From a virus, in IMG/VR virus record IMGVR_UViG_3300042731_007310, positions 1 through 64,000 of that record: a stretch of DNA of 64,000 nucleotides. One strand, 5' to 3'. Positions 3 to 38,268 of this stretch are shown here, one piece after another (the stretch's first letter is position 1; each line of letters begins with the position of its first letter). Below the pieces are notes generated by a model that was not told the DNA's origin, did no database searches, and saw only the letters and a list, made by a program, of their open reading frames with translations. The translations under genes were made by a program, and so were the position numbers.

Positions 3-191
3 GAAACGTGTAAGTGGCCGTCAACTACATTGGTAGCGGTTGATAGAGACGTTCTTAGGCGTGTAACCAACATTCATGTTCAAAATGGAAAAGGGAACAC
101 CATAGTTGTTCCGGTTTCAGATAGTGTAATAGAAAAAGATGGTATTTTCGATTTTGATTTTCCGCATTATGAATCAGTGACACATGTCTAA
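3..191 (+). CDS. 5'-truncated hypothetical protein
   Basis: Open frame from the window edge to TAA at 189-191, overlapping the next ATG. Confidence 0.6.
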   Translation, partial: ETCKWPSTTLVAVDRDVLRRVTNIHVQNGKGNTIVVPVSDSVIEKDGIFDFDFPHYESVTHV

Positions 192-732
192 ATTAGATGA
201 CATAAGAGAACAGTTGAAACGGCCATTGATATTTACTCCTAATGAGCCGATATCACGAGATCTATTGATACAGATATCAAACGATCTAGCTATTTCTGTT
301 GGTATGGATCCGGATTACTTCATAGAACTATTTGAAGATATGAGTGGTTCAGCTATTCCGGGTTCACCAGAAGAAGCGCTTAGGTCCGTGATGAAGGTAA
401 TAGGATCGTATTTGTATGGTTGTGCTGTGAAGCCAGATGTAATTAGGTATGTTTCTTTTTGTGTACCAGGATCTATATTTGGTGGTCAATTGCAATCATC
501 CATTTGTGACTTTGCTGTATTAGAAGCGCAATGGCCAAGGGGAACTAGGGTTGTGATGGGTCCTAATCCGGAATTGAATTTTGAAGATCAGAGAGCTTAT
601 ATATTGAAGCCAGACAAAAACGTTTTTCTGATTCCATACTACGGTAGTGCACTGTGGAAACATATTGATGAAAAAAATAAGGTTATAATGTTTGAAGACG
701 ATGATGATGGTATGGATGAAATTCCTTTTTAG
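184..732 (+). CDS. hypothetical protein, N-terminal tag family (MSKLDDIR)
   Basis: ORF with the shared N-terminal motif; acidic C-terminus ending DEIPF. Confidence 0.8.
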   Translation: MSKLDDIREQLKRPLIFTPNEPISRDLLIQISNDLAISVGMDPDYFIELFEDMSGSAIPGSPEEALRSVMKVIGSYLYGCAVKPDVIRYVSFCVPGSIFGGQLQSSICDFAVLEAQWPRGTRVVMGPNPELNFEDQRAYILKPDKNVFLIPYYGSALWKHIDEKNKVIMFEDDDDGMDEIPF

Positions 733-739
733 GTGAGTT

Positions 740-1183
740 ATGAATTTAGACGATCTGAGAAAGAAAGCACGTGGTGGTGACTTAGAACCTGAACCAGATA
801 AGCCGTGTGATTTTGAAGGTTGTGATAATTTCGCTACCTATAGAGACGAAGAAGGTCATTGGTGTCACACTCATAGAATAAAAATGATAAGAGAGACAGT
901 TAGTATGGATCCTACTGGTGGTAGTTTTGGTGGATCGGCTGCAACTGTGTTGTATACTGGTTCGTTTGCTGCTACTTGTGCTGTTTCGCCATCAATATTA
1001 TATACACCACCGTCTTCAGGTTCAGCGCTTCCACCATTAGCACCTATTCCACCAGTGTTGTCTTCAATTGAAGAAGACAAAGAAGAACCTAGTATAGTAA
1101 AGATATTGAGGAAAGCTAGATTATTTGGTAAAGGTTTTGTTGAGGGGTTGATCGAAGATGAATCTGAAGGAACTAAGAAATAA
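740..1183 (+). CDS. tag-family protein with Cys/His finger and Pro/Ser linker
   Basis: MNLDDLRKKARGG; CDFEGC...WCHTH; AGGTGA RBS. Confidence 0.8.
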   Translation: MNLDDLRKKARGGDLEPEPDKPCDFEGCDNFATYRDEEGHWCHTHRIKMIRETVSMDPTGGSFGGSAATVLYTGSFAATCAVSPSILYTPPSSGSALPPLAPIPPVLSSIEEDKEEPSIVKILRKARLFGKGFVEGLIEDESEGTKK

Positions 1184-1376
1184 GGCGCGTAAAGGAATCG
1201 AACCCGAAAGGGATTGTAATAGTCCTTTGCTACCACAGAAAACGTTTTTTGGAATTGACTTCGGTGTAGTTGACTCGATTGCTTTTGTTTCTAAAAATAG
1301 AGACGCGGCTGATATAACACTAAGAGAATTCAAAAGACTGATGGGTATAGACTGGAATATACATGAAACTAGATGA
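1158..1376 (+). CDS. tag-family small protein
   Basis: MNLKELRNKARKGIEP; GAGG RBS. Confidence 0.8.
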   Translation: MNLKELRNKARKGIEPERDCNSPLLPQKTFFGIDFGVVDSIAFVSKNRDAADITLREFKRLMGIDWNIHETR

Positions 1377-1665
1377 TATAAGGCTAGTTCTGTCTAGTAA
1401 GAATGGTGTAGATAGATTCGAAAAGAAGAAGGAGAAATCACCTGTCTTAGACGAAGAACTTTGCAATCATCCCGGATGTTTTGAAAAAGGAATCGTGCCT
1501 GATGGCGGTATTCTGTATTGTAAAGAACACCATTTCAAGTGTGATGTGTGGTCAAGCTATGGTGAACACGCGTGTAAAAATAGGGTAGCTGAATTAGGTG
1601 ATGTATGTGAATTGTGCAAGGGTAAGGGACATACAAAAAGAATTCGACGCGGTAGAAGGTGGTAG
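1363..1665 (+). CDS. tag-family Zn-finger protein
   Basis: MKLDDIR; CNHPGC..YCKEH..C..C..CxxC. Confidence 0.8.
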   Translation: MKLDDIRLVLSSKNGVDRFEKKKEKSPVLDEELCNHPGCFEKGIVPDGGILYCKEHHFKCDVWSSYGEHACKNRVAELGDVCELCKGKGHTKRIRRGRRW

Positions 1666-1668
1666 AAT

Positions 1669-1944
1669 ATGAACCTGTCAGATCTAAGGAATAAGGCGCG
1701 TAAAGGGATCAAGGCACCTAAACGTAAGCGTAGAAGGCGTGATACACCTATAACACCTATAGTTACTATAAAGCCTATTGATGTTATGAATACAATTATG
1801 TCTAATGCGCCTAAATCCGATGACGTTGCTAAAGCTATGGACGCATTATCTAGGGTTGGTAGATTGTCACAAGAACAGTTGGACAAATTTGTTCAGCTAA
1901 TGTTTGATCCTTCCGTTATAAAAAATAAGGAGAAAAGAAAATGA
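1669..1944 (+). CDS. tag-family basic protein
   Basis: MNLSDLRNKARKGIKAP. Confidence 0.8.
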   Translation: MNLSDLRNKARKGIKAPKRKRRRRDTPITPIVTIKPIDVMNTIMSNAPKSDDVAKAMDALSRVGRLSQEQLDKFVQLMFDPSVIKNKEKRK

Positions 1945-2168
1945 GAAGAAGAACTATATGGATCTTAGCCAAACCTGGTGAAACACGTTTTTTTTGTCAA
2001 CCGCGTGAATACTCTCAAGAGTGGTTGGATATCCAAAGAAAAGACGGTTACGAATTATTCGAAGTAACCATCACTCTACCGGAACGTTATGATAGCAAGG
2101 CTGAAAAGGCATATGTAAGAAGGGTAAAGGAGATAATAGATGGAAGCCAAGGGACTTCGACTAAGTAA
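1941..2168 (+). CDS. hypothetical protein
   Basis: AGGAG RBS; ATGA overlap. Confidence 0.7.
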   Translation: MRRRTIWILAKPGETRFFCQPREYSQEWLDIQRKDGYELFEVTITLPERYDSKAEKAYVRRVKEIIDGSQGTSTK

Positions 2169-3081
2169 GAAGGTTCAGAAAGAAAAGTTGTTGAGAATAA
2201 GGGAGATTGAAAGGGATTTATATAATCTATTCTTCAATCATTCAGTCAAGGAAGATCTACCCGATGAGAGTTGTGATCATGTAAATGATTTCTTCTCTGA
2301 AAATGCCAATATTCTATCTAAACATATTCACAGGTTGATTGAAGAATGGAGATCGTTGAAGGGTGAAATTCTTCTATCGAATATTGGCATTATAGTAAAG
2401 GCCGTTAGTAGGTGGTCTATTCCGTCTACTTCAACTTATGACGATTTGCTACAAGAAGGTATAATAGCCGGTATGAAGTCGGTAGATAGATTCAATCCTA
2501 AATTAGGTTACGCGATTACTACCTATATGAGTAAATGTGTTTTTTATTCTATGTATCGTATTTTCTATGCTCACTCAAAGATAGTAAAGGAACCGGCTTA
2601 CTTGAGAGTTGTTAGGTGTGCCGATAACAAACAGACAAGAAAAAACGGAGGTAAACAGATTGATGAAAAACATCTTTCAGAAATAAGTGGTTTCAGAAAA
2701 ACGGCGATCAAAATTGCAAGAAATGAAGTTAGAGTGATATCGATAGAAGCGTTTAATAAATCAGCCGGATCTGATAGAAATTCTGGTGTTTCACTAATTA
2801 TACAAAGAGCCCTTACATATGAAGGTGAATCACAAGAAGAAGCTGTTTCAAATTCTCAATTGAAGAAATTCGCAATGGATTCTTTGAAGGTACTCAATAG
2901 GAGAGAGAAAGTAGTAATGATCAAGAGATACGGATTATTAGATTATAAACCATTGACGCTAAGAGAGATCGGTAAAGACTTAGGAGTATCCCGGGAAAGA
3001 GTACGTCAAATAGAAAATGATGCGCTATTCAAGTTGAGAAGAAAATTAAAACAACAGGATGTATTCGAGGTTATCAGGTGA
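2140..3081 (+). CDS. RNA polymerase sigma-70 family factor (RpoD/RpoS-like regions 2-4)
   Basis: DLLQEGIIAGMKSVDRF (region 2.2); LNRREKVV..TLREIGKDLGVSRERVRQIE (region 4). Confidence 0.93.
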   Translation: MEAKGLRLSKKVQKEKLLRIREIERDLYNLFFNHSVKEDLPDESCDHVNDFFSENANILSKHIHRLIEEWRSLKGEILLSNIGIIVKAVSRWSIPSTSTYDDLLQEGIIAGMKSVDRFNPKLGYAITTYMSKCVFYSMYRIFYAHSKIVKEPAYLRVVRCADNKQTRKNGGKQIDEKHLSEISGFRKTAIKIARNEVRVISIEAFNKSAGSDRNSGVSLIIQRALTYEGESQEEAVSNSQLKKFAMDSLKVLNRREKVVMIKRYGLLDYKPLTLREIGKDLGVSRERVRQIENDALFKLRRKLKQQDVFEVIR

Positions 3082-3311
3082 AATTGGAAGATCTAAGAAA
3101 TAAGGTCAAGAATGGCTTCAAGACTAGGCGTACATGTGGTGTCACGTTTTGTAGTAAATATTCGACTACAAATGGGTATTGCAAAGATCATATTTACGAG
3201 TGTAGAACAAGGGGGTGTAGTAATCGGGTTAGTCGTTTGAATGCAAAGTGCAGTGTGTGTTCTAGGCGAGACAATCAGATTAGACTGAAGGAAATAAAGA
3301 AGGTAAGATGA
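3078..3311 (+). CDS. tag-family Zn-finger protein
   Basis: GTG start, MKLEDLRNKVKNG; Cys pattern like 1363..1665. Confidence 0.8.
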   Translation: MKLEDLRNKVKNGFKTRRTCGVTFCSKYSTTNGYCKDHIYECRTRGCSNRVSRLNAKCSVCSRRDNQIRLKEIKKVR

Positions 3312-3553
3312 AGCTCTCCGATCTTCGAAAAAGGGCCGTGAAGGGGATAAAACGGCCTTCTATGACTCGTAAACAGGAACAACGTGTCAAGAATGGTGGT
3401 AAATGGAAGATTGTTTCTGTTGACAGTTTGAAGGGTCCTATCAAGGGACAAGTAATTGATAGAATTGACTTCCAGATAGTAGACGATGTACTAGATGAAG
3501 GTGATCTTTCGCGTGATGAAAGAAGAGATCTTCTTACATGGTACGGTGATTGA
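3308..3553 (+). CDS. tag-family small protein
   Basis: MKLSDLRKRAVKGIKRP. Confidence 0.8.
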   Translation: MKLSDLRKRAVKGIKRPSMTRKQEQRVKNGGKWKIVSVDSLKGPIKGQVIDRIDFQIVDDVLDEGDLSRDERRDLLTWYGD

Positions 3554-3758
3554 ATTCGAGGATAACGACGGTTTTTTGTTATTCTGAATGGGTAAAAAAT
3601 AATAAAAAAAAGCTTGCAAGTTGAAGCGAAAGCGCTAGATGGTCCACGGGTCAGGGAGGATCTGTCTTTTTTCATTCTTACATGATGTGATAACCGGATA
3701 TTGGTGGTATAAACGGTTACTAAAAACGTTTTTCTTCATAAAATAATGAAAATAAACC

Positions 3759-3787
3759 TTGAAAGTTGAAGCGAAGTAACGTATATT
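3759..3787 (+). promoter_or_regulatory. sigma-70-type early promoter
   Basis: TTGAAA-17 bp-TATATT with A-rich upstream element; the spacer recurs at 4478 and 14213. Confidence 0.8.
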
Positions 3788-3827
3788 TATTCTTATGGAC
3801 GCAACAACAATAAAGGGAGAAACGAAG

Positions 3828-4115
3828 ATGGCAACAATAAAAGAAATCTACCAAATCGGACTTGAAGCGGCTGCAAAGCTTGATTCTTGGGTTTTCACAG
3901 GAATAGTGGTTGACGGAACAACGGAAGCTTGCGAAAAGGCGATCGCGATTGCTAGTGAGATTCTACCTGGTATCGCGCTAAGTGAGACCTTGACGCTAGC
4001 TGAAGCCTTTCTTGAAAAGAATGAAGCGATTGTTCCGGTTCCGGGTGAAACCAAGTGTTTATTCGAATCAGTCAAGACCGAATATGCTCATTTCGTATTA
4101 GGTGGTAAGAATTAA
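3828..4115 (+). CDS. early hypothetical protein
   Basis: Start moved to the ATG after the GGGAG RBS; N-terminus resembles that of 14272. Confidence 0.75.
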   Translation: MATIKEIYQIGLEAAAKLDSWVFTGIVVDGTTEACEKAIAIASEILPGIALSETLTLAEAFLEKNEAIVPVPGETKCLFESVKTEYAHFVLGGKN

Positions 4116-4383
4116 AACTCATTTGACCTACATGGTCAGAAAGGCCCGTTCAATGTCTAAACCTATCGTAAACAATCCGTCTCTCAAGGGTCAACTTGCT
4201 AGCCGAAAGCGTCTTTTCGGACCTTGGAGCCGTTACGCTGTAGCAGCGGTTCACACCAGATTCGAAAATGTAGTTTGGATGGTTTGGGATTCAGAAACCA
4301 TCGATCTGGAAACGGATCTGATCGATATAATCCGTATCGCTGATACGGAAGAAAAGGCCGTAGAAGGCCTTCCGTTGTCATAG
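4102..4383 (+). CDS. hypothetical phage protein
   Basis: ORF ending just before a terminator; start uncertain. Confidence 0.7.
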   Translation: MVRIKTHLTYMVRKARSMSKPIVNNPSLKGQLASRKRLFGPWSRYAVAAVHTRFENVVWMVWDSETIDLETDLIDIIRIADTEEKAVEGLPLS

Positions 4384-4407
4384 CCCTAACGTTGTGTCGT
4401 TTTGAAG

Positions 4408-4440
4408 AAGGCCGTTTTAGAACGGCCTTTTTCTTTGTTT
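4408..4440 (+). terminator. rho-independent terminator
   Basis: AAGGCCGTT-TTAG-AACGGCCTT followed by a T tract. Confidence 0.85.
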
Positions 4441-4471
4441 ACGTATAGATACAAAATAATGAAAAAAAATG

Positions 4472-4500
4472 TTGCAAGTTGAAGCGAAGTAACGTATATT
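4472..4500 (+). promoter_or_regulatory. sigma-70-type early promoter
   Basis: TTGCAA-gttgaagcgaagtaacg-TATATT. Confidence 0.85.
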
Positions 4501-4537
4501 GATAATTATGACGACAACGACAAAAGGAGAAACGACG

Positions 4538-4705
4538 ATGAAGAAAGCTACTGTCAAATTGGATCTTGGAAACAATGAAGAAATCAGTCAAGGCGTAAAC
4601 AAGAATTCTGATGGTACTTACACTGCTATGACCTTCACTAAGTCGAAAACCTTCAAGACTCGAAACGGCGCTATCCGTTGGTTATCACGTCAACTATCAA
4701 AGTAA
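4538..4705 (+). CDS. DUF1391 (YdaF/YdfA-like) protein
   Basis: DLGNNE...DGTYTAMTFTKSKTFKT.NGA.RWL matches the family as recalled; AAGGAG RBS. Confidence 0.8.
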   Translation: MKKATVKLDLGNNEEISQGVNKNSDGTYTAMTFTKSKTFKTRNGAIRWLSRQLSK

Positions 4706-4718
4706 AGGAGAAACGACG

Positions 4719-5057
4719 ATGAAAAAGACTCATGACGGTTTAGATGTATATCCAGTTGGTTCGAAACTACCATGGACTGCTAAAGGCTGGACACAATGTA
4801 GGCTCTTTGATGGCGCTTGCCTTACTTGGATTGATGAGAAGGACATTGACACCTACAAAGAACACCTAAATAAAATAGATGAAGCTCTCAAGCTCATCAC
4901 TACGAAAAAAGGCGGAATTGCGGCAATGAAGGGTTTAGGCCTTTCTCTAATCGGTTGTGACAAGTTGAAGGATATGAAACTACGTATCCGGAATAACATA
5001 GTTGAGAGATCTTGGCCGTTGATCGAAGTAGATGACGCTGTGAGCGCTTCCAACTGA
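4719..5057 (+). CDS. early hypothetical protein
   Basis: Same AAAGGAGAAACGACGATG initiation region as 4538. Confidence 0.8.
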   Translation: MKKTHDGLDVYPVGSKLPWTAKGWTQCRLFDGACLTWIDEKDIDTYKEHLNKIDEALKLITTKKGGIAAMKGLGLSLIGCDKLKDMKLRIRNNIVERSWPLIEVDDAVSASN

Positions 5058-5082
5058 AAATAGACCTCATAGGTCAAGAGAA

Positions 5083-5113
5083 AAAAGGCCGTCTTAGAAC
5101 GGCCTTTTCTTTG
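5083..5113 (+). terminator. rho-independent terminator (near-copy of 4408)
   Basis: AAAAGGCCGT-CTTAGA-ACGGCCTTTT then CTTT. Confidence 0.85.
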
Positions 5114-5157
5114 CCTAAAAACCATCGATCACCGAAGAAAGGCGGTAAATAGAAAGT

Positions 5158-5670
5158 ATGAAACTTGACGATCTTCGAAAAGAAGCAATTTCAGGTATTG
5201 ATCCTTATCACAAGTGGGATAAACGGCCGTTACTAACGAAAAAAGGCATATTGGCTAGTAGTCCGGACTTCGACTATTCATTTATTCTTCAACGTTGTGA
5301 ATGTGGGAGTGTGATCGGAGTGAAATTAGGTTCTTCGATATGTCCGGTATGTGGGAAAGATCAAAATTCGATCATAAGTTCAAAAGTTGTTTTCGACATG
5401 TCGAAAATTAGGGTATTAGACGATTCAATGAGGAAAATAGGCGCTAAAATGGCTAGAATACGCGAACTGGCTAAAGCTGTTAGAACCACCTATGACTTTC
5501 ATAAGGTGGTTGAGAATGCCAGTTTAGGCCTTCCACCAAAACACTTCAATTCACGTTGTGATCGTTATTATCCGTTATTTGATCCGACTGATGCTAGAAT
5601 AGCCGATCTTCAAAAGTACGCTTATCCGCATAGGATCATTTTACCTGATGAATCAAAACGGAAATTATGA
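5158..5670 (+). CDS. tag-family protein with Zn ribbon
   Basis: MKLDDLRKEAISGIDP; CECG..CPVCG. Confidence 0.8.
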   Translation: MKLDDLRKEAISGIDPYHKWDKRPLLTKKGILASSPDFDYSFILQRCECGSVIGVKLGSSICPVCGKDQNSIISSKVVFDMSKIRVLDDSMRKIGAKMARIRELAKAVRTTYDFHKVVENASLGLPPKHFNSRCDRYYPLFDPTDARIADLQKYAYPHRIILPDESKRKL

Positions 5671-5741
5671 AGCTCTCCGATCTCAGAAGAAAAGCCGCTT
5701 CCGGAATCAAGACACCTAAACGCAAGGTCAAGAAAACCTAG
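5667..5741 (+). CDS. 24-aa tag-only peptide MKLSDLRRKAASGIKTPKRKVKKT
   Basis: Translated by hand; ATGA overlap with the upstream stop; below the ORF-track cutoff. Confidence 0.65.
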   Translation: MKLSDLRRKAASGIKTPKRKVKKT

Positions 5742-5801
5742 GTTACAAAAGAAGGCCGTGTTTTCATAATTGGCAATCCGTCAAATGGTGATGATCCGGA
5801 T

Positions 5802-5987
5802 GTGAGAGTTGTGAAGTGTGAGTGCGGAAAGCTGATATCAATAAAGCAAGGTTGCACATTGTGTCCAAAGTGCGGAAAAGATCACAATAACGCAATGAAA
5901 TACACCAAAACACAATTGAAAGCATACAACGAAATAGCGAAACGCCTATTTCGGCTCAATTCAGTCAAAGGTAAAAAGAAGAGGTAA
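5802..5987 (+). CDS. Zn-ribbon protein, paralog of the 5158 domain
   Basis: KCECG..CPKCGKDHN versus RCECG..CPVCGKDQN. Confidence 0.65.
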   Translation: MRVVKCECGKLISIKQGCTLCPKCGKDHNNAMKYTKTQLKAYNEIAKRLFRLNSVKGKKKR

Positions 5988-28387: not shown

Positions 28388-28656
28388 TGCCCTTCCCCAA
28401 CGAGCACGCGGCTAGACAAGCCGATCCTGATAGCTTTGATACTTTCCGTAGGGGAAAGCCGAAGGGCTTTCCCCGTGGTATATCTGTTATATTTGGTATA
28501 AAGAATGGTAAATCACGTATTCGGACCATCCGTTTCGATCGTAAACTATGGACTGTTGCGCGCGCTAGAGAGTGGCTAAAAAATCATGGTTTCAAATCAA
28601 CCATAGAAGCCGCTTCGAAAAAAGTAAAAAAAGGTTTTTGGAAAGGGATAATCTAG
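28387..28656 (+). CDS. small head-associated protein with scaffold-like C-terminus
   Basis: PFPNEHAAR domain; ends KKGFWKGII. Confidence 0.7.
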   Translation: MPFPNEHAARQADPDSFDTFRRGKPKGFPRGISVIFGIKNGKSRIRTIRFDRKLWTVARAREWLKNHGFKSTIEAASKKVKKGFWKGII

Positions 28657-33281: not shown

Positions 33282-33821
33282 ATGAACGATATTGCGCGCC
33301 ACATTGAAGGCATAGCTGAATGTGTCAGAAAAACAACCGTTCCAGCGCTTAGAGAAGAAGCGCGAAAAGAAATGGTTGTTGATACAGAAAAAGATACGTC
33401 TACAGAAAATTCACCAGATGAACAGAAGTCCGTAAAAAAGCAGATAGAAGTTTCGATCGCTAAAGCAGACGAAGAACAACAGACGGTTACTGGTATTGTA
33501 CTTCAGCCTGAAGTGGTGGATGGTCAAGGCGATATCATGTCTGAAGAAGTTATTAGAGATAGCGCTTATGCTTTTCTGATGAACTTCAATAAGGCAACCA
33601 AATTAGGCATTCAGCACAATAAATTCCCTGTTGGAAAACTTGCGTTGGTTGAAAGTTGGCTTTCTCCTATGGAAATGGCAATAGGTACTAAGACGGTCAA
33701 ACAGGGTTCTTGGATTATGACCGTAAAAATACTGGACAAAAAACTTTGGGAGAAAGTAAAGAAGGGTGAAATAACCGGCTTTAGTATTGGTGGTAAGGCC
33801 AAGGTTGTTGCATCAACATAG
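33282..33821 (+). CDS. XkdF-like prohead serine protease
   Basis: VLQPEVVDGQGD, QH, VESW, GEITGFSIGG. Confidence 0.9.
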   Translation: MNDIARHIEGIAECVRKTTVPALREEARKEMVVDTEKDTSTENSPDEQKSVKKQIEVSIAKADEEQQTVTGIVLQPEVVDGQGDIMSEEVIRDSAYAFLMNFNKATKLGIQHNKFPVGKLALVESWLSPMEMAIGTKTVKQGSWIMTVKILDKKLWEKVKKGEITGFSIGGKAKVVAST

Positions 33822-33837
33822 CAAGGAAACCAAAATC

Positions 33838-34797
33838 ATGCCTAAGAAACCTACGAGAAGATTTCTAAAATTAGATACCAATGAGGTATCGTTAGTTGAT
33901 GTTCCAGCAAACGAAGTTCCGTTTCTGGTTACTAAAAATCAAGATCAAATGGAGAATGATAACATGAGTGCACAAGCCGGAAATCAAAACATCGACGGTG
34001 AAAGTGTTCAAGTGCAAGTTGACGGTTCCGAAAGTTCCGTTCAAAAGGCAATAGAACATGTTAATTCTATCGTCGAAAATATCACGAAAGTTGTCACCGT
34101 AAAAAACCAGGGAGCGGAAGGAAACGAACAAGATAACGCTCAATCGGCCGATTCCGGTGATACCACAGATGTTAGCAAGGCTACGATCAAGTCCGTACTT
34201 TCTGCTTTAGGAATGAGCGGAGATGATATGAAAAAGGCTTGCGACAAATTGAAGGCGGCTGGATTCAATCCAAATCAGCAATTCCCTTCAGCACAACCAC
34301 CTGTCAAAAAGGATGCAAAGGGTGAAGGTTCTGAAGGTGAAACGGAAACACAAAAGTCTGATACCGATTCTGTCGTACAGGATCAACCGCTTACCATGCA
34401 ATCGCTAGCTGAAGCTGTTCAAAAAGCAGCGGCTTTTACGCCTAGCAGAATAGAACAACTGAAGAATGCTCAGGAAATCTTGAAGCTTGTTCTTGAAGCG
34501 GTTGCTCCCAATACATCACCCAAAACAAAAGTTCCGGGTGTTGAGAGTCATAGCAATCCGAGTGCCGTAAGCGATCTTTCTCAACCGACCAAGAAGCCGG
34601 TTATGAAGAATGCTGATGATAACGGAGAATTTGTTACAGCACTCAAAGCGCTAGCTGATGGCGTAAAGACCCTAACGGAACGTGTCGAGAATATCGAAAA
34701 GACTCGTAACGCTAGCAATAGCGTAGAAGATGACGGTGACACTGACACCAATACGGATACACAAAAGAGTAAAGGCCTTTGGAACGGACTTCTGTAG
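33838..34797 (+). CDS. scaffold protein with N-terminal protease fragment
   Basis: EVSLVDVPAN at the N-terminus; low-complexity body; directly upstream of the capsid gene; ends KGLWNGLL. Confidence 0.75.
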   Translation: MPKKPTRRFLKLDTNEVSLVDVPANEVPFLVTKNQDQMENDNMSAQAGNQNIDGESVQVQVDGSESSVQKAIEHVNSIVENITKVVTVKNQGAEGNEQDNAQSADSGDTTDVSKATIKSVLSALGMSGDDMKKACDKLKAAGFNPNQQFPSAQPPVKKDAKGEGSEGETETQKSDTDSVVQDQPLTMQSLAEAVQKAAAFTPSRIEQLKNAQEILKLVLEAVAPNTSPKTKVPGVESHSNPSAVSDLSQPTKKPVMKNADDNGEFVTALKALADGVKTLTERVENIEKTRNASNSVEDDGDTDTNTDTQKSKGLWNGLL

Positions 34798-37483: not shown

Positions 37484-38268
37484 GTAATCCCATTACACAA
37501 AATATTTTTGTTCGTAAAGATATCAAATTGGCAACTGGCGAAAGTGTCAGTGACTTCACTAAAAAGTTGCGTGAAAGTTGCGTGAAATGGGCTAGACAGA
37601 AATTGGCGCTTGATGTGAAGAAGGGAGATATCTATCCGGTTGAGATTTTCAGTTCAGCCGTTGTTTTTGATGTCTATAAATACGACTCTGAACCCGGAAA
37701 CAGACAACAGTATTTCGCTTGTAAATACAAGCGTCAAGATACTGGTGGGTTTGAATTTGAAAGTCTAATGGAAGTCGAAAGGGTTGTTTCATTTCAACAG
37801 AAACAAAATGCCCCTGTTATGAAGTCCAAAGGAATCGAAGTAGACGTTGAAAAGGCGCCATTGTCTACGGCTACAATCAACGATTTACCAGATGCGGCTT
37901 TCGCGATTATTCTACCTGGTGGAAAAAAAGACGCGAGCGGAAAAACTACACCACGTAATCTTCGAATGTTGCCGCATCATACGCGCAATGTTCAGAGTGC
38001 TAGCGAAGATAGTACGATTGATATGCCACGTTTGAGGAATGCATTAGCAAGATTGAATCAAGCTAAGTTGAGTCAGGAACAAAGAAGTAGGGCTAGTAAT
38101 CATTTGGATAAACACGCTAATGCGGTTTTGGCTAGCCGTGGTGGTGATCCAGGGAAGATCGATGCTACCCGTGGAAATCGCGCTGGTGCTAAACCAGTAA
38201 AGAAGGCACTTGACGTTTGTGATGGTTGGATAGAAACGTCAAAATCATTTTGGAATGGAGTGATCTGA
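37480..38268 (+). CDS. head-associated multidomain protein with scaffold-like C-terminus
   Basis: NDLPDAAFA..GKTTPRNLRMLPHH..RNALAR domain; ends KSFWNGVI. Confidence 0.75.
   Translation: MSNPITQNIFVRKDIKLATGESVSDFTKKLRESCVKWARQKLALDVKKGDIYPVEIFSSAVVFDVYKYDSEPGNRQQYFACKYKRQDTGGFEFESLMEVERVVSFQQKQNAPVMKSKGIEVDVEKAPLSTATINDLPDAAFAIILPGGKKDASGKTTPRNLRMLPHHTRNVQSASEDSTIDMPRLRNALARLNQAKLSQEQRSRASNHLDKHANAVLASRGGDPGKIDATRGNRAGAKPVKKALDVCDGWIETSKSFWNGVI

What the first reader, a model, noticed from the sequence alone, without database searches (positions are those of the whole stretch)
184..5741. Array of nine unrelated small proteins sharing a conserved N-terminal peptide tag
Seen: ORFs at 184 (MSKLDDIRE), 740 (MNLDDLRKKARGG), 1158 (MNLKELRNKARKGI), 1363 (MKLDDIR), 1669 (MNLSDLRNKARKGI), 3078 (MKLEDLRNKVKNG), 3308 (MKLSDLRKRAVKGI), 5158 (MKLDDLRKEAISGI) and 5667 (MKLSDLRRKAASGI) all start M[KN]L[DSEK][DE][LI]R[KN]KAxxGI. 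After about 16 aa they diverge into Zn fingers, Pro-rich, acidic or basic bodies. The first Leu uses all six codons (TTA, CTG, CTA, TTG, CTC, CTT) and the Arg uses AGA, AGG and CGA, so the peptide is conserved rather than the DNA. Known precedent: T4 internal proteins share an N-terminal capsid-targeting sequence. Inference: a short amphipathic helix that addresses a diverse cargo set to one partner, such as the procapsid, RNA polymerase (the sigma gene sits inside the array) or a host machine. The array may continue left of the window.
Basis: partly seen in the sequence, partly recalled or inferred. Interest (0 to 1): 0.9.

Follow-up and report, generated by a model that had tools for sequence, protein, structure and literature searches.

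The report
Shared N-terminal tag on phage proteins
Ten small, mostly unrelated proteins of an uncultured wetland phage begin with the same 14-17 residue peptide, which looks like a portable docking label that spread from a protein tied to the phage's DNA polymerase, but what reads the label is unknown.

Summary
All nine ORFs start with M[KN]LxDLRxKAxxGI-type peptides at the stated coordinates. A tenth lies at 82330 of the same 84,478-bp record. No other start codon or internal segment in the record matches.

Selection acts on the peptide, not the DNA. In all six ortholog groups the first 17 residues are the best-conserved part.

An HMM read over 1.84 billion proteins finds the tag only in this small phage clade. 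In 79 related phage loci and three whole relatives, no genome has a comparable N-terminal family.

Context argues against a simple capsid-targeting reading:
- The array closes the replication module.
- The tenth tagged gene overlaps the start of a phage Pol III alpha gene.
- The N-terminus of that gene family is conserved in distant relatives.
- A sigma gene lies inside the array.

Best reading: a clade-specific docking peptide that recruits varied small proteins to one partner in the replication/transcription apparatus. The partner is not identified.

"Unrelated bodies" is mostly right. "Amphipathic helix" is not supported.

The scan has noted the same class of shared tags on other phage DNA, but none with this sequence.

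The parts
184..732 (+). Tagged gene t184 (182 aa, acidic). It is a weak tag member (MSKLDDIRE). Its C-terminus ends in an acidic run followed by I-P-F, like the tip of bacterial SSB (the SSB consensus is recalled).
   Evidence: Three orthologs keep both the tag and the acidic ...[IL]PF end. There is no Pfam or PDB match.
740..1183 (+). Tagged gene t740 (147 aa). It has a core tag, a CX4C..CX2H finger, a variable Pro/Ser/Lys linker and a near-C-terminal GKGFVEGLI motif.
   Evidence: The first 28 residues are invariant in all 7 sequences, while the linker is hypervariable.
1158..1376 (+). Tagged gene t1158 (72 aa). It has a core tag, and its first 26 nt overlap the end of t740.
1363..1665 (+). 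Tagged gene t1363 (100 aa, 7 Cys). It is a weak tag member with two Cys clusters.
1669..1944 (+). Tagged gene t1669 (91 aa, pI 10.8). The core tag is followed by a KRKRRRR stretch.
1941..2168 (+). Untagged 75-aa gene inside the array.
2140..3081 (+). Sigma-70 family factor (regions 2 and 4) inside the array.
   Evidence: Sigma70_r4 scores 8.1e-16, Sigma70_r2 5e-06 and phrog_351 4.3e-33. Close homologs (62-75% identity) occur only in the same clade.
3078..3311 (+). Tagged gene t3078 (77 aa, GTG start, 7 Cys, basic).
3308..3553 (+). Tagged gene t3308 (81 aa). It shares 17 identical nucleotides at its start with 5667.
3614..4500 (+). Three copies of a conserved sigma-70-like promoter (TTG[CA]AAGTTGAAGCGAA..., at 3614, 3759 and 4472), with terminators and untagged small genes. 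These early cassettes interrupt the array.
   Evidence: There are 7 matches with up to 3 mismatches against 0.67 expected.
5158..5670 (+). Tagged gene t5158 (170 aa) with a Zn ribbon.
5667..5987 (+). Tagged Zn-ribbon paralog of t5158. It is interrupted by one in-frame TAG at 5739-5741, which splits it into a 24-codon 'tag-only' ORF and the ORF at 5802.
   Evidence: The Zn ribbon is 50% identical over 28 aa (E 3e-10).

Best explanation
The first 14-17 residues (M-[KN]-L-x-[DE]-[LI]-R-x-K-A-x-x-G-I-[KE]-x-P) form a portable peptide module under purifying selection. I read it as a docking label by which one partner recognises a set of otherwise different small proteins.

Origin (inferred): the label most likely comes from the N-terminus of a small ExoX-like_C protein whose gene is translationally coupled to the phage's Pol III alpha gene. 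In this one clade it spread by duplication or recombination onto at least nine further small proteins. These are zinc fingers, Zn ribbons, basic and acidic bodies, and one with an SSB-like acidic tip. Their genes close the replication operon and surround a phage sigma gene.

Partner (inferred): I place the partner in the replication/transcription apparatus active inside the infected cell, not in the procapsid. Candidates are the phage Pol III alpha, the helicase, a host hub such as the sliding clamp, or RNA polymerase with the phage sigma.

Shown: the tag is real, N-terminal only, selected as peptide, clade-restricted and modular.
Inferred: that it docks at all, the identity of the partner, and the direction of spread.
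For: The tag is specific.
- It matches 10 of 8677 start positions, and there are no internal copies.

Selection acts on the peptide.
- Amino-acid identity is 0.59 against third-position identity of 0.35, and all six Leu codons are used at the invariant Leu.
- Residues 1-17 are more conserved than the rest in 6 of 6 ortholog alignments (0.79-1.00 against 0.48-0.78 in the five close groups; 0.50 against 0.38 in the wide t82330 family).

The tag is modular.
- BLASTP of the bodies finds only Zn-module similarities.
- The same Zn modules also occur untagged in the same genome, at 9391 and 7893.

The context is replication.
- The module at 69.9-84.5 kb encodes an SF2 helicase, a DnaC-like loader, DnaB, a methylase, a primase, a MoxR ATPase and a vWA protein.
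- The tagged gene at 82330 overlaps by 17 nt the start of a Pol III alpha gene (PHP 1.2e-36, DNA_pol3_alpha 1.8e-28).

The t82330 family is older than the array.
- Of the 8 related loci with Pol III alpha identity of 49% or more, 5 have a gene abutting the polymerase gene that starts M[PA][ST][LI][ED]E[ILM]R, and a sixth has a homolog about 2 kb upstream.
- These genes carry ExoX-like_C. The L010 copy scores 29.8 bits against a cut-off of 26.5.
- Their N-terminus and C-terminal domain are conserved across a linker that varies from about 20 to 200 residues.
- An HMM of the seven core tags alone ranks the L006 member first of 8329 ORF N-termini (9.4 bits). The window's own t82330 scores 7.6 bits.

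The phage depends on host replication factors or needs adaptors.
- No clamp, SSB or DnaQ-type exonuclease family is detectable in the held genome.
- None of three complete relatives has a clamp or an SSB.
- t184 ends in an SSB-like acidic tip.

Sigma and the tag array co-occur.
- Sigma70_r4 reaches the cut-off in 0 of 5 distant relatives.
- Those relatives also lack tag arrays.
Against:
- The similarity between the core tags and the t82330-family N-terminus is short and weak (7.6-9.4 bits). The L007, L009 and L010 members do not reach the top 30. In L008 the 'invariant' Arg position holds a Gln.
- Nine different proteins competing for one replisome site is unusual.
- The tag does not resemble the recalled clamp-binding motif QL[SD]LF.
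- The phage has a prohead protease (S78_2, 8.7e-33). The tag ends at a conserved G-I-[KE]-x-P boundary that could be a processing site. T4 internal-protein genes also lie outside the head module. So capsid targeting is not excluded.
- Expression timing is unknown. No RNA holder was listed.
- About 18% of the genome is missing by CheckV's estimate.
Confidence: 0.4

Rival explanations
1. Capsid-targeting leader. The tag binds the scaffolding core, loads the small proteins into the procapsid, and may be clipped off by the prohead protease. The cargo would then be injected with the DNA, as with the T4 internal proteins.
For: - T4 precedent: a 10-residue N-terminal peptide is the only thing shared by diverse internal proteins (passages read in PMC3012670 and PMC9026906).
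- The phage encodes an S78_2 prohead protease, a scaffold and a MuF-like protein.
- The bodies are small and strongly basic or acidic.
- A conserved G-I-[KE]-x-P boundary follows the tag.
- t740 also carries a near-C-terminal motif like the one that ends the scaffold.
Against: - The genes sit at the end of the replication operon and around a sigma gene, 22 kb or more from the head genes.
- One member is coupled to the polymerase gene, and its N-terminus is conserved in distant phages as part of that polymerase-linked family.
- A separate C-terminal motif already marks the scaffold and two other head-module proteins as the likely capsid-interior signal.
- t184 carries an SSB-like tip, which points to work at replication forks.
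- There is no conserved [LI]-x-E site. However, the protease here belongs to a different family from T4 gp21.
Confidence: 0.2
2. Substrate handle. The tag is recognised by an enzyme or ATPase that processes, remodels or degrades the whole set. Candidates are the phage MoxR AAA+/vWA pair encoded just upstream, or a host protease for which the tag would act as a timed degron.
For: - MoxR (AAA_5 1.1e-17, CbbQ_C) and CobT-like vWA genes lie at 76.9-79.8 kb, three genes before the tagged gene at 82330.
- The extreme N-terminal position and the invariant acidic and Arg residues suit a recognition handle.
That note is a lead only.
Against: - No test was possible.
- The closest of the distant relatives compared (L006) has a 620-aa gene at the syntenic position before its polymerase gene, but no tag array. 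I did not scan that gene against Pfam.
- No maturase-type enzyme (radical SAM, YcaO) was found among the neighbours that were scanned.
Confidence: 0.15
3. Family relic. The genes descend from one ancestor. The N-terminus is simply the slowest-evolving part, for instance a nucleic-acid-binding arm or a folding nucleus, and there is no shared protein partner.
For: - Some pairs still share DNA: 3308 and 5667 have 17 identical nucleotides, and 1158 and 1669 share codons 8-14.
- Zn modules recur among the bodies.
- The tag is basic and is often followed by basic residues.
Against: - Most bodies show no detectable similarity and range from pI 4.3 to 11.3.
- The same Zn modules also exist untagged.
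- The tag is conserved more strongly than the bodies in every ortholog group.
- In the t82330 family a hypervariable linker separates the N-terminus from the C-terminal domain. This is the signature of an independent module.
Confidence: 0.15
4. Translation-level signal. The first codons are conserved because they help initiation or re-initiation in the tightly overlapped operon.
For: - Seven of the ten tagged starts overlap the upstream gene's end or stop codon (1158, 1363, 3078, 3308, 5667, 184 and 82330), and 1669 starts 4 nt after a stop.
- All 6 D-L tags are encoded GAT-CTN, against 43.5% of D-L dipeptides genome-wide.
Against: - Synonymous sites are nearly randomised and all six Leu codons are used.
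- Conservation extends over 14-17 residues.
- Untagged genes in the same operon, 1941 and sigma, are coupled in the same way.
Confidence: 0.05

Closest known systems
Capsid targeting sequence (CTS) of phage T4 internal proteins IPI, IPII, IPIII and Alt
   Same: A short peptide at the extreme N-terminus is the only feature shared by a diverse, fast-evolving set of small phage proteins. It acts as an address (passages read in PMC3012670 and PMC9026906).
   Different: - There is no sequence similarity.
- The prohead protease here is S78_2, not the gp21 family, and there is no conserved [LI]-x-E site.
- The genes lie in the replication/sigma operon.
- One member belongs to a polymerase-coupled family.
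- Packaging and cleavage are untested.
Hub-binding terminal peptides of replication and late-transcription proteins. These are the T4 gp45-binding C-terminal tails of gp43, gp33 and gp55, and the bacterial clamp-binding motif QL[SD]LF. Both are recalled.
   Same: One short terminal peptide lets unlike proteins of replication and transcription share one hub. The set here lies between a polymerase gene and a sigma gene.
   Different: The peptide here is N-terminal and 14-17 residues long. It does not match QL[SD]LF. No clamp gene is found in the phage, and no binding has been shown.
ExoX-like_C (PF20600) small proteins encoded next to phage Pol III alpha genes
   Same: The tagged gene at 82330 is homologous to genes in L006, L007, L008, L009 and L010 (E 1.9e-26 to 4.6e-11). 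The L010, L016, L007 and L009 members match PF20600 at 3.7e-07 to 0.003.
   Different: The window's own copy gives no Pfam match. Only L010 passes the curated cut-off. The function of the domain is unknown to me, and the papers listed were not read.
Acidic C-terminal tip of bacterial SSB (recalled consensus D-D-D-I-P-F)
   Same: t184 and its three orthologs end in an acidic run followed by [IL]-P-F.
   Different: There is no SSB/OB match for t184. This concerns one body, not the tag.

Membership tests
T4-type capsid targeting sequence | A short N-terminal peptide is shared by otherwise dissimilar small proteins. | tested here: met
T4-type capsid targeting sequence | The peptide ends at a prohead-protease site (in T4, [LI]-x-E, cut by gp21). 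| tested here: not met
   The alignment shows no conserved [LI]-x-E at the end of the tag. The boundary is G-I-[KE]-x-P. The protease here is S78_2, and its specificity is unknown, so the T4 motif may not apply.
T4-type capsid targeting sequence | The phage encodes a prohead protease and a scaffolding core. | tested here: met
   Peptidase_S78_2 scores 8.7e-33 at 33282-33821. The scaffold-like gene at 33787-34797 hits phrog_3017 at 4.8e-06.
T4-type capsid targeting sequence | The tagged proteins are present in the virion and delivered to the host. | not testable with these tools
   The phage is uncultured, and no proteome is available.
Bacterial clamp-binding motif | A QL[SD]LF or QLxLxL pentapeptide or hexapeptide (recalled). 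| tested here: not met
   In the tag alignment the two aliphatic residues are spaced i, i+3, with an acidic residue between them and an Arg after them. There is no Gln.
RiPP-type leader peptides | The precursors lie beside a maturase gene (radical SAM, YcaO, lanthipeptide synthetase). | tested here: not met
   No such family appears among the 27 neighbouring proteins scanned against Pfam. The rest of the genome was not scanned protein by protein.
ExoX-like_C (PF20600), for the tagged gene at 82330 | A match to the family profile over the curated cut-off. | tested here: inconclusive
   The window's own protein has no match. The L010 homolog scores 29.8 bits against a cut-off of 26.5, and three other homologs fall below the cut-off. 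Homology of the own protein to L010 is shown by tblastn at 4.6e-11.
Ribosomal protein uL29 N-terminus (a resemblance I recalled) | A match to Ribosomal_L29. | tested here: not met
   The family is not listed for any tagged protein at E up to 1. The PDB profile search gave only a chance-level match, at E 1.1, to a different protein, eukaryotic L29.

The most novel reading that the evidence does not exclude
The tag is a hub-binding peptide that ties a phage-encoded Pol III alpha replisome to late transcription driven by the phage sigma. Polymerase accessory proteins and small zinc-finger transcription factors would all dock, through the same N-terminal peptide, on one mobile platform. That platform could be the host sliding clamp or the phage polymerase itself. 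This would be an independent reinvention of the replication-coupled late transcription known from T4, using a new peptide at the opposite terminus.
Probability: 0.12. Interest if true: 0.8.

Novelty: new variant of a known kind. Interest (0 to 1): 0.6.

Why it matters
Shared terminal peptides are how hubs such as clamps, SSB and scaffolding cores handle many clients. The best-known phage example I could confirm in print is the T4 capsid-targeting sequence.

This case differs in two ways. The label is confined to one uncultured clade, and it sits in the replication/transcription part of the genome. Its likely ancestor is still attached to the polymerase gene in distant relatives. It therefore offers a traceable example of how a docking peptide spreads onto new proteins.

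If the reader of the tag is found, about ten proteins of unknown function gain a context at once. The peptide could also serve as a small handle for bringing proteins to that machine.

Tried and rejected
- **Known families.** Pfam and PHROGs give nothing significant for any tagged protein. PDB profile searches with the t184 group, the t82330 group and the tag alignment give only chance-level rows. The ESM Atlas gave nothing usable for t184: best feature score 0.82, own model pLDDT 0.38.
- **Tag DNA pattern in IMG/VR.** There was one match, in a high-GC tape-measure gene, which I judge to be chance.
- **Sigma as a route to relatives.** IMG/VR gave none. JGI metagenomes gave one distant locus, L003, which I did not use. 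No isolated phage is close: TerL is at most 28.8% identical and sigma at most 30%.
- **Tag HMM on five relatives' records.** No match at E up to 10.
- **The 5'-open ORF at 3-191.** It is not the C-terminus of the polymerase and has no Pfam match.
- **Amphipathic helix.** The hydrophobic moment is not above that of shuffled tags.
- **GATC.** It is not enriched genome-wide (420 sites against 441 expected), although 6 of 6 D-L tags contain it.
- **Sequencing runs.** One DNA run, labelled wetland metagenome, holds the stretch. No RNA holder is listed.
- **Literature.** Five searches listed no description of this peptide or of an N-terminal tag family next to a phage Pol III alpha gene. Only listings and abstract openings were seen, except for passages of PMC3012670 and PMC9026906. 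Supplements were not opened.
- **Limits.** The homolog search with the tag alignment covered only proteins of 71 aa or more, so shorter tag-only peptides in relatives were not searched. No orthologs of 3078, 3308 or 5158 were seen. Gene calls in my scripts are crude (longest non-overlapping ORFs) and dropped some tagged ORFs in the control.

Full report
**What the window is.** The window is bases 1-64000 of an 84,478-bp linear IMG/VR virus record that CheckV estimates to be 82% complete. One public DNA run, labelled wetland metagenome, holds the stretch.

The genes are almost all on the + strand. The record encodes:
- a contractile-tailed virion module: large terminase, portal, MuF-like protein, an XkdF-type S78_2 prohead protease, a scaffold-like protein, major capsid protein and sheath;
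- a replication module at 69.9-84.5 kb: SF2 helicase, DnaC-like loader, DnaB-like helicase, N6/N4 methylase, primase, MoxR AAA+ and a CobT-like vWA protein;
- a Pol III alpha gene (PHP and DNA_pol3_alpha domains) that runs off the right end of the contig.

No isolated phage is close. TerL is at most 28.8% identical to anything in the phage collection.

**The observation.** A pattern for the tag matches 10 of 8677 start-codon positions on both strands of the whole record. These are the nine listed starts plus one at 82330, outside the window.

An HMM of tag residues 2-15, run on the six-frame translation, scores nine tags at 15.4-22.8 bits. The next best segment anywhere scores 4.4 bits, so there are no internal or half-way copies. 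The model was built from these tags, and the 5667 ORF lies in a segment too short to be in that search.

The codon claims hold. The invariant Leu uses all six codons, and the invariant Arg uses AGA, AGG and CGA. In the seven core tags, amino-acid identity is 0.59 and third-position identity is 0.35.

Some pairs do share DNA. The genes at 3308 and 5667 have 17 identical nucleotides at the start. This fits spread by duplication or conversion.

A conserved [KE]-x-P follows the G-I of the tag.

**How unusual it is.** I ran a crude control on 79 loci around related polymerase genes plus this genome (1944 ORF-called genes). Only this genome has three or more genes sharing an N-terminal 10-mer at 5 of 10 identities or better.

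Three whole relatives (82, 104 and 107 kb) have nothing comparable. One shows a trio that is an upstream-leader artefact, and one shows a chain of chance Arg-rich matches.

A profile of the tag alignment was read against 1,835,955,588 cluster representatives. It gave 7 proteins at E up to 0.001. Five were already in hand as this phage's own proteins or clade orthologs. One is a new ortholog of the 1669 protein. One is a 1369-aa repetitive junk ORF.

A word-indexed search of 5.8 billion proteins, limited to 71 aa or more, gave 28 proteins at E up to 10. Nine are this phage's own or near-identical. The other 19 are orthologs from a handful of short contigs. They fall into six groups: 740-like 6, 1158-like 4, 184-like 3, 1669-like 2, 1363-like 2 and 82330-like 2.

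The tag is therefore restricted to one small clade, as far as these searches can see.

**Is it a module?**
- BLASTP of residues 17 to the end, all against all, finds only small Cys modules. The Zn ribbon is shared by 5158 and 5802 (5.8e-10). There are weak matches of 1363 and 3078 to the untagged 9391 and 7893.
- 740, 1363 and 3078 share a CX4C..CX2H finger with weak Pfam echoes.
- So the bodies are mostly, but not wholly, unrelated, and the same Zn modules also exist without the tag.
- Body pI ranges from 4.3 to 11.3.
- In all six ortholog alignments, residues 1-17 are more conserved than the rest. In the 740 group the figures are 1.00 against 0.58.
- The 24-codon 'tag-only' ORF at 5667 is in frame with the ORF at 5802 across a single TAG. 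Together they form a tagged paralog of 5158.

**Context.** The tagged genes at 184-3553 are tightly overlapped. They have no strong promoter or terminator between them, and they include a sigma-70 family gene.

Three cassettes with a repeated sigma-70-like promoter and terminators separate them from 5158 and 5667.

The tenth tagged gene, at 82330, overlaps by 17 nt the start of the Pol III alpha gene.

The 5'-open ORF at the left end of the window is not the polymerase C-terminus. At least one more gene therefore lies in the gap.

**The lead from relatives.** The polymerase belongs to a large phage family. 583 IMG/VR stretches encode a relative, and 79 loci were kept.

Eight loci have 49% or more identity to the polymerase. 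In five of them (L006, L007, L009, L010, L016) the gene abutting the polymerase gene starts M[PA][ST][LI][ED]E[ILM]R. A sixth, L008, has a homolog about 2 kb upstream that starts the same way but has Gln where the others have Arg.

These proteins are homologs of the 82330 protein (E 1.9e-26 to 4.6e-11). They carry an ExoX-like_C domain. The L010 copy is over the curated cut-off, and three others fall below it. Both their N-terminus and their C-terminal domain are conserved across a linker that varies from about 20 to 200 residues.

An HMM built from the seven core tags alone ranks the L006 protein first among 8329 ORF N-termini. The window's own 82330 protein scores 7.6 bits, which would be third. 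The L007, L009 and L010 members are not in the top 30.

I read this as a likely, but not proven, common origin. The peptide is old in the polymerase-coupled protein and was copied onto other genes in this clade only.

The distant relatives have neither a tag array nor a sigma gene. Sigma70_r4 is over the cut-off in 0 of 5.

**What it probably does.** A peptide that is fixed at the free N-terminus, selected as protein, followed by a linker-like boundary and carried by varied bodies is best explained as a docking label for one reader.

The genomic position, the polymerase-coupled ancestor and the SSB-like acidic tip on the 184 protein all point the same way. So does the absence of detectable clamp, SSB and DnaQ-type genes in this record and of clamp and SSB genes in three complete relatives.

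T4 offers a functional analogy, which I recall rather than tested. There, polymerase, late sigma and its co-activator share a clamp-binding tail.

None of this is shown.

**Rivals.**
- Capsid targeting keeps real weight. The T4 precedent is exact in kind, a prohead protease exists, and the 740 protein carries a near-terminal motif like the one that ends the scaffold and two other head-module proteins. That same C-terminal motif, however, is the more natural capsid-interior signal in this phage.
- A handle for the neighbouring MoxR/vWA pair, or a degron, cannot be excluded.
- A family relic without a common partner cannot be excluded either.
- A purely translational role is unlikely, given the randomised synonymous sites.

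The tag is very polar, and its helical hydrophobic moment is not above that of shuffled versions. I therefore do not call it an amphipathic helix.

**Novelty.** Five literature searches listed no description of this peptide or of an N-terminal tag family beside a phage polymerase gene. Only listings were seen, apart from passages of two T4 reviews.

The scan itself has noted shared N- or C-terminal tags on small proteins of other phages, but nothing with this sequence. I class this as a new variant of a known kind. It is a terminal address peptide, here clade-specific, placed in the replication/sigma region, and with a traceable ancestor.

Noticed in passing
window 184-732 (C-terminus at about 690-729): The 182-aa tagged protein and its three orthologs end in an acidic run followed by [IL]-P-F, like the tip of bacterial SSB (consensus recalled). 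No SSB family match exists in this record or in four relatives' records, three of them complete. It may be a novel SSB or a mimic of the SSB tail.
   Followed up: partly
window 28627-28656, 34768-34797, 38239-38268 and 1127-1153: The motif [KS][KS][GS][FL]W.G[IVL][IL] ends three head-module proteins, including the scaffold-like one, exactly at the stop codon. A similar GKGFVEGLI lies 9 residues before the stop of the tagged 740 protein and is kept in five of its six orthologs (the sixth is shorter and lacks that end). Those last residues of 740 overlap the tag of the next gene.
   Followed up: partly
window 5739-5741: A single in-frame TAG splits a tagged Zn-ribbon gene into a 24-codon ORF and the ORF at 5802. 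It could be a pseudogene, an assembly error or read-through. This was not resolved.
   Followed up: partly
window 617, 1239, 3723, 6388, 8671, 11265, 13144, 18660, 21103, 23502, 52888: The palindrome AAAACGTTTT occurs 11 times against 0.37 expected. Ten of the sites lie in the first 24 kb. Two lie inside tagged genes, where they encode protein segments conserved in orthologs (KNVFL in 184; KTF[FL] in 1158). It may be an operator or a promoter element.
   Followed up: partly
codons 5-6 of the tags at window 740, 1669, 3078, 3308, 5158, 5667: All six Asp-Leu tags are encoded GAT-CTN, which places a GATC at the same spot. Genome-wide, 43.5% of D-L dipeptides are encoded this way, and GATC is not enriched overall. 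The phage encodes an N6/N4 methylase.
   Followed up: partly
L004 18643-19998 (record 82643 to the contig end): The phage encodes a Pol III alpha (about 1270 aa in relatives). This is a large family in uncultured phages of about 100-120 kb. No clamp, SSB or DnaQ-type exonuclease family is detectable in this record, and no clamp or SSB in three complete relatives.
   Followed up: partly
L007 9514-9993 and L010 9606-9995: In two relatives, the polymerase-coupled ExoX-like_C protein has a DnaJ-type CxxCxGxG zinc finger inserted in the variable linker.
   Followed up: no
window 3614, 3759, 4472, 14207: A conserved promoter word followed by a conserved leader is read as ..T[IT]KGE[ST].. before the real ATG. 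A relative (G002) shows the same leader artefact (..ATHKG..KM) on three genes.
   Followed up: partly
one search hit list: The nearest cellular relatives of the phage sigma (about 30% identity) are mostly labelled Omnitrophota and Planctomycetota. This is a weak hint about the host.
   Followed up: no
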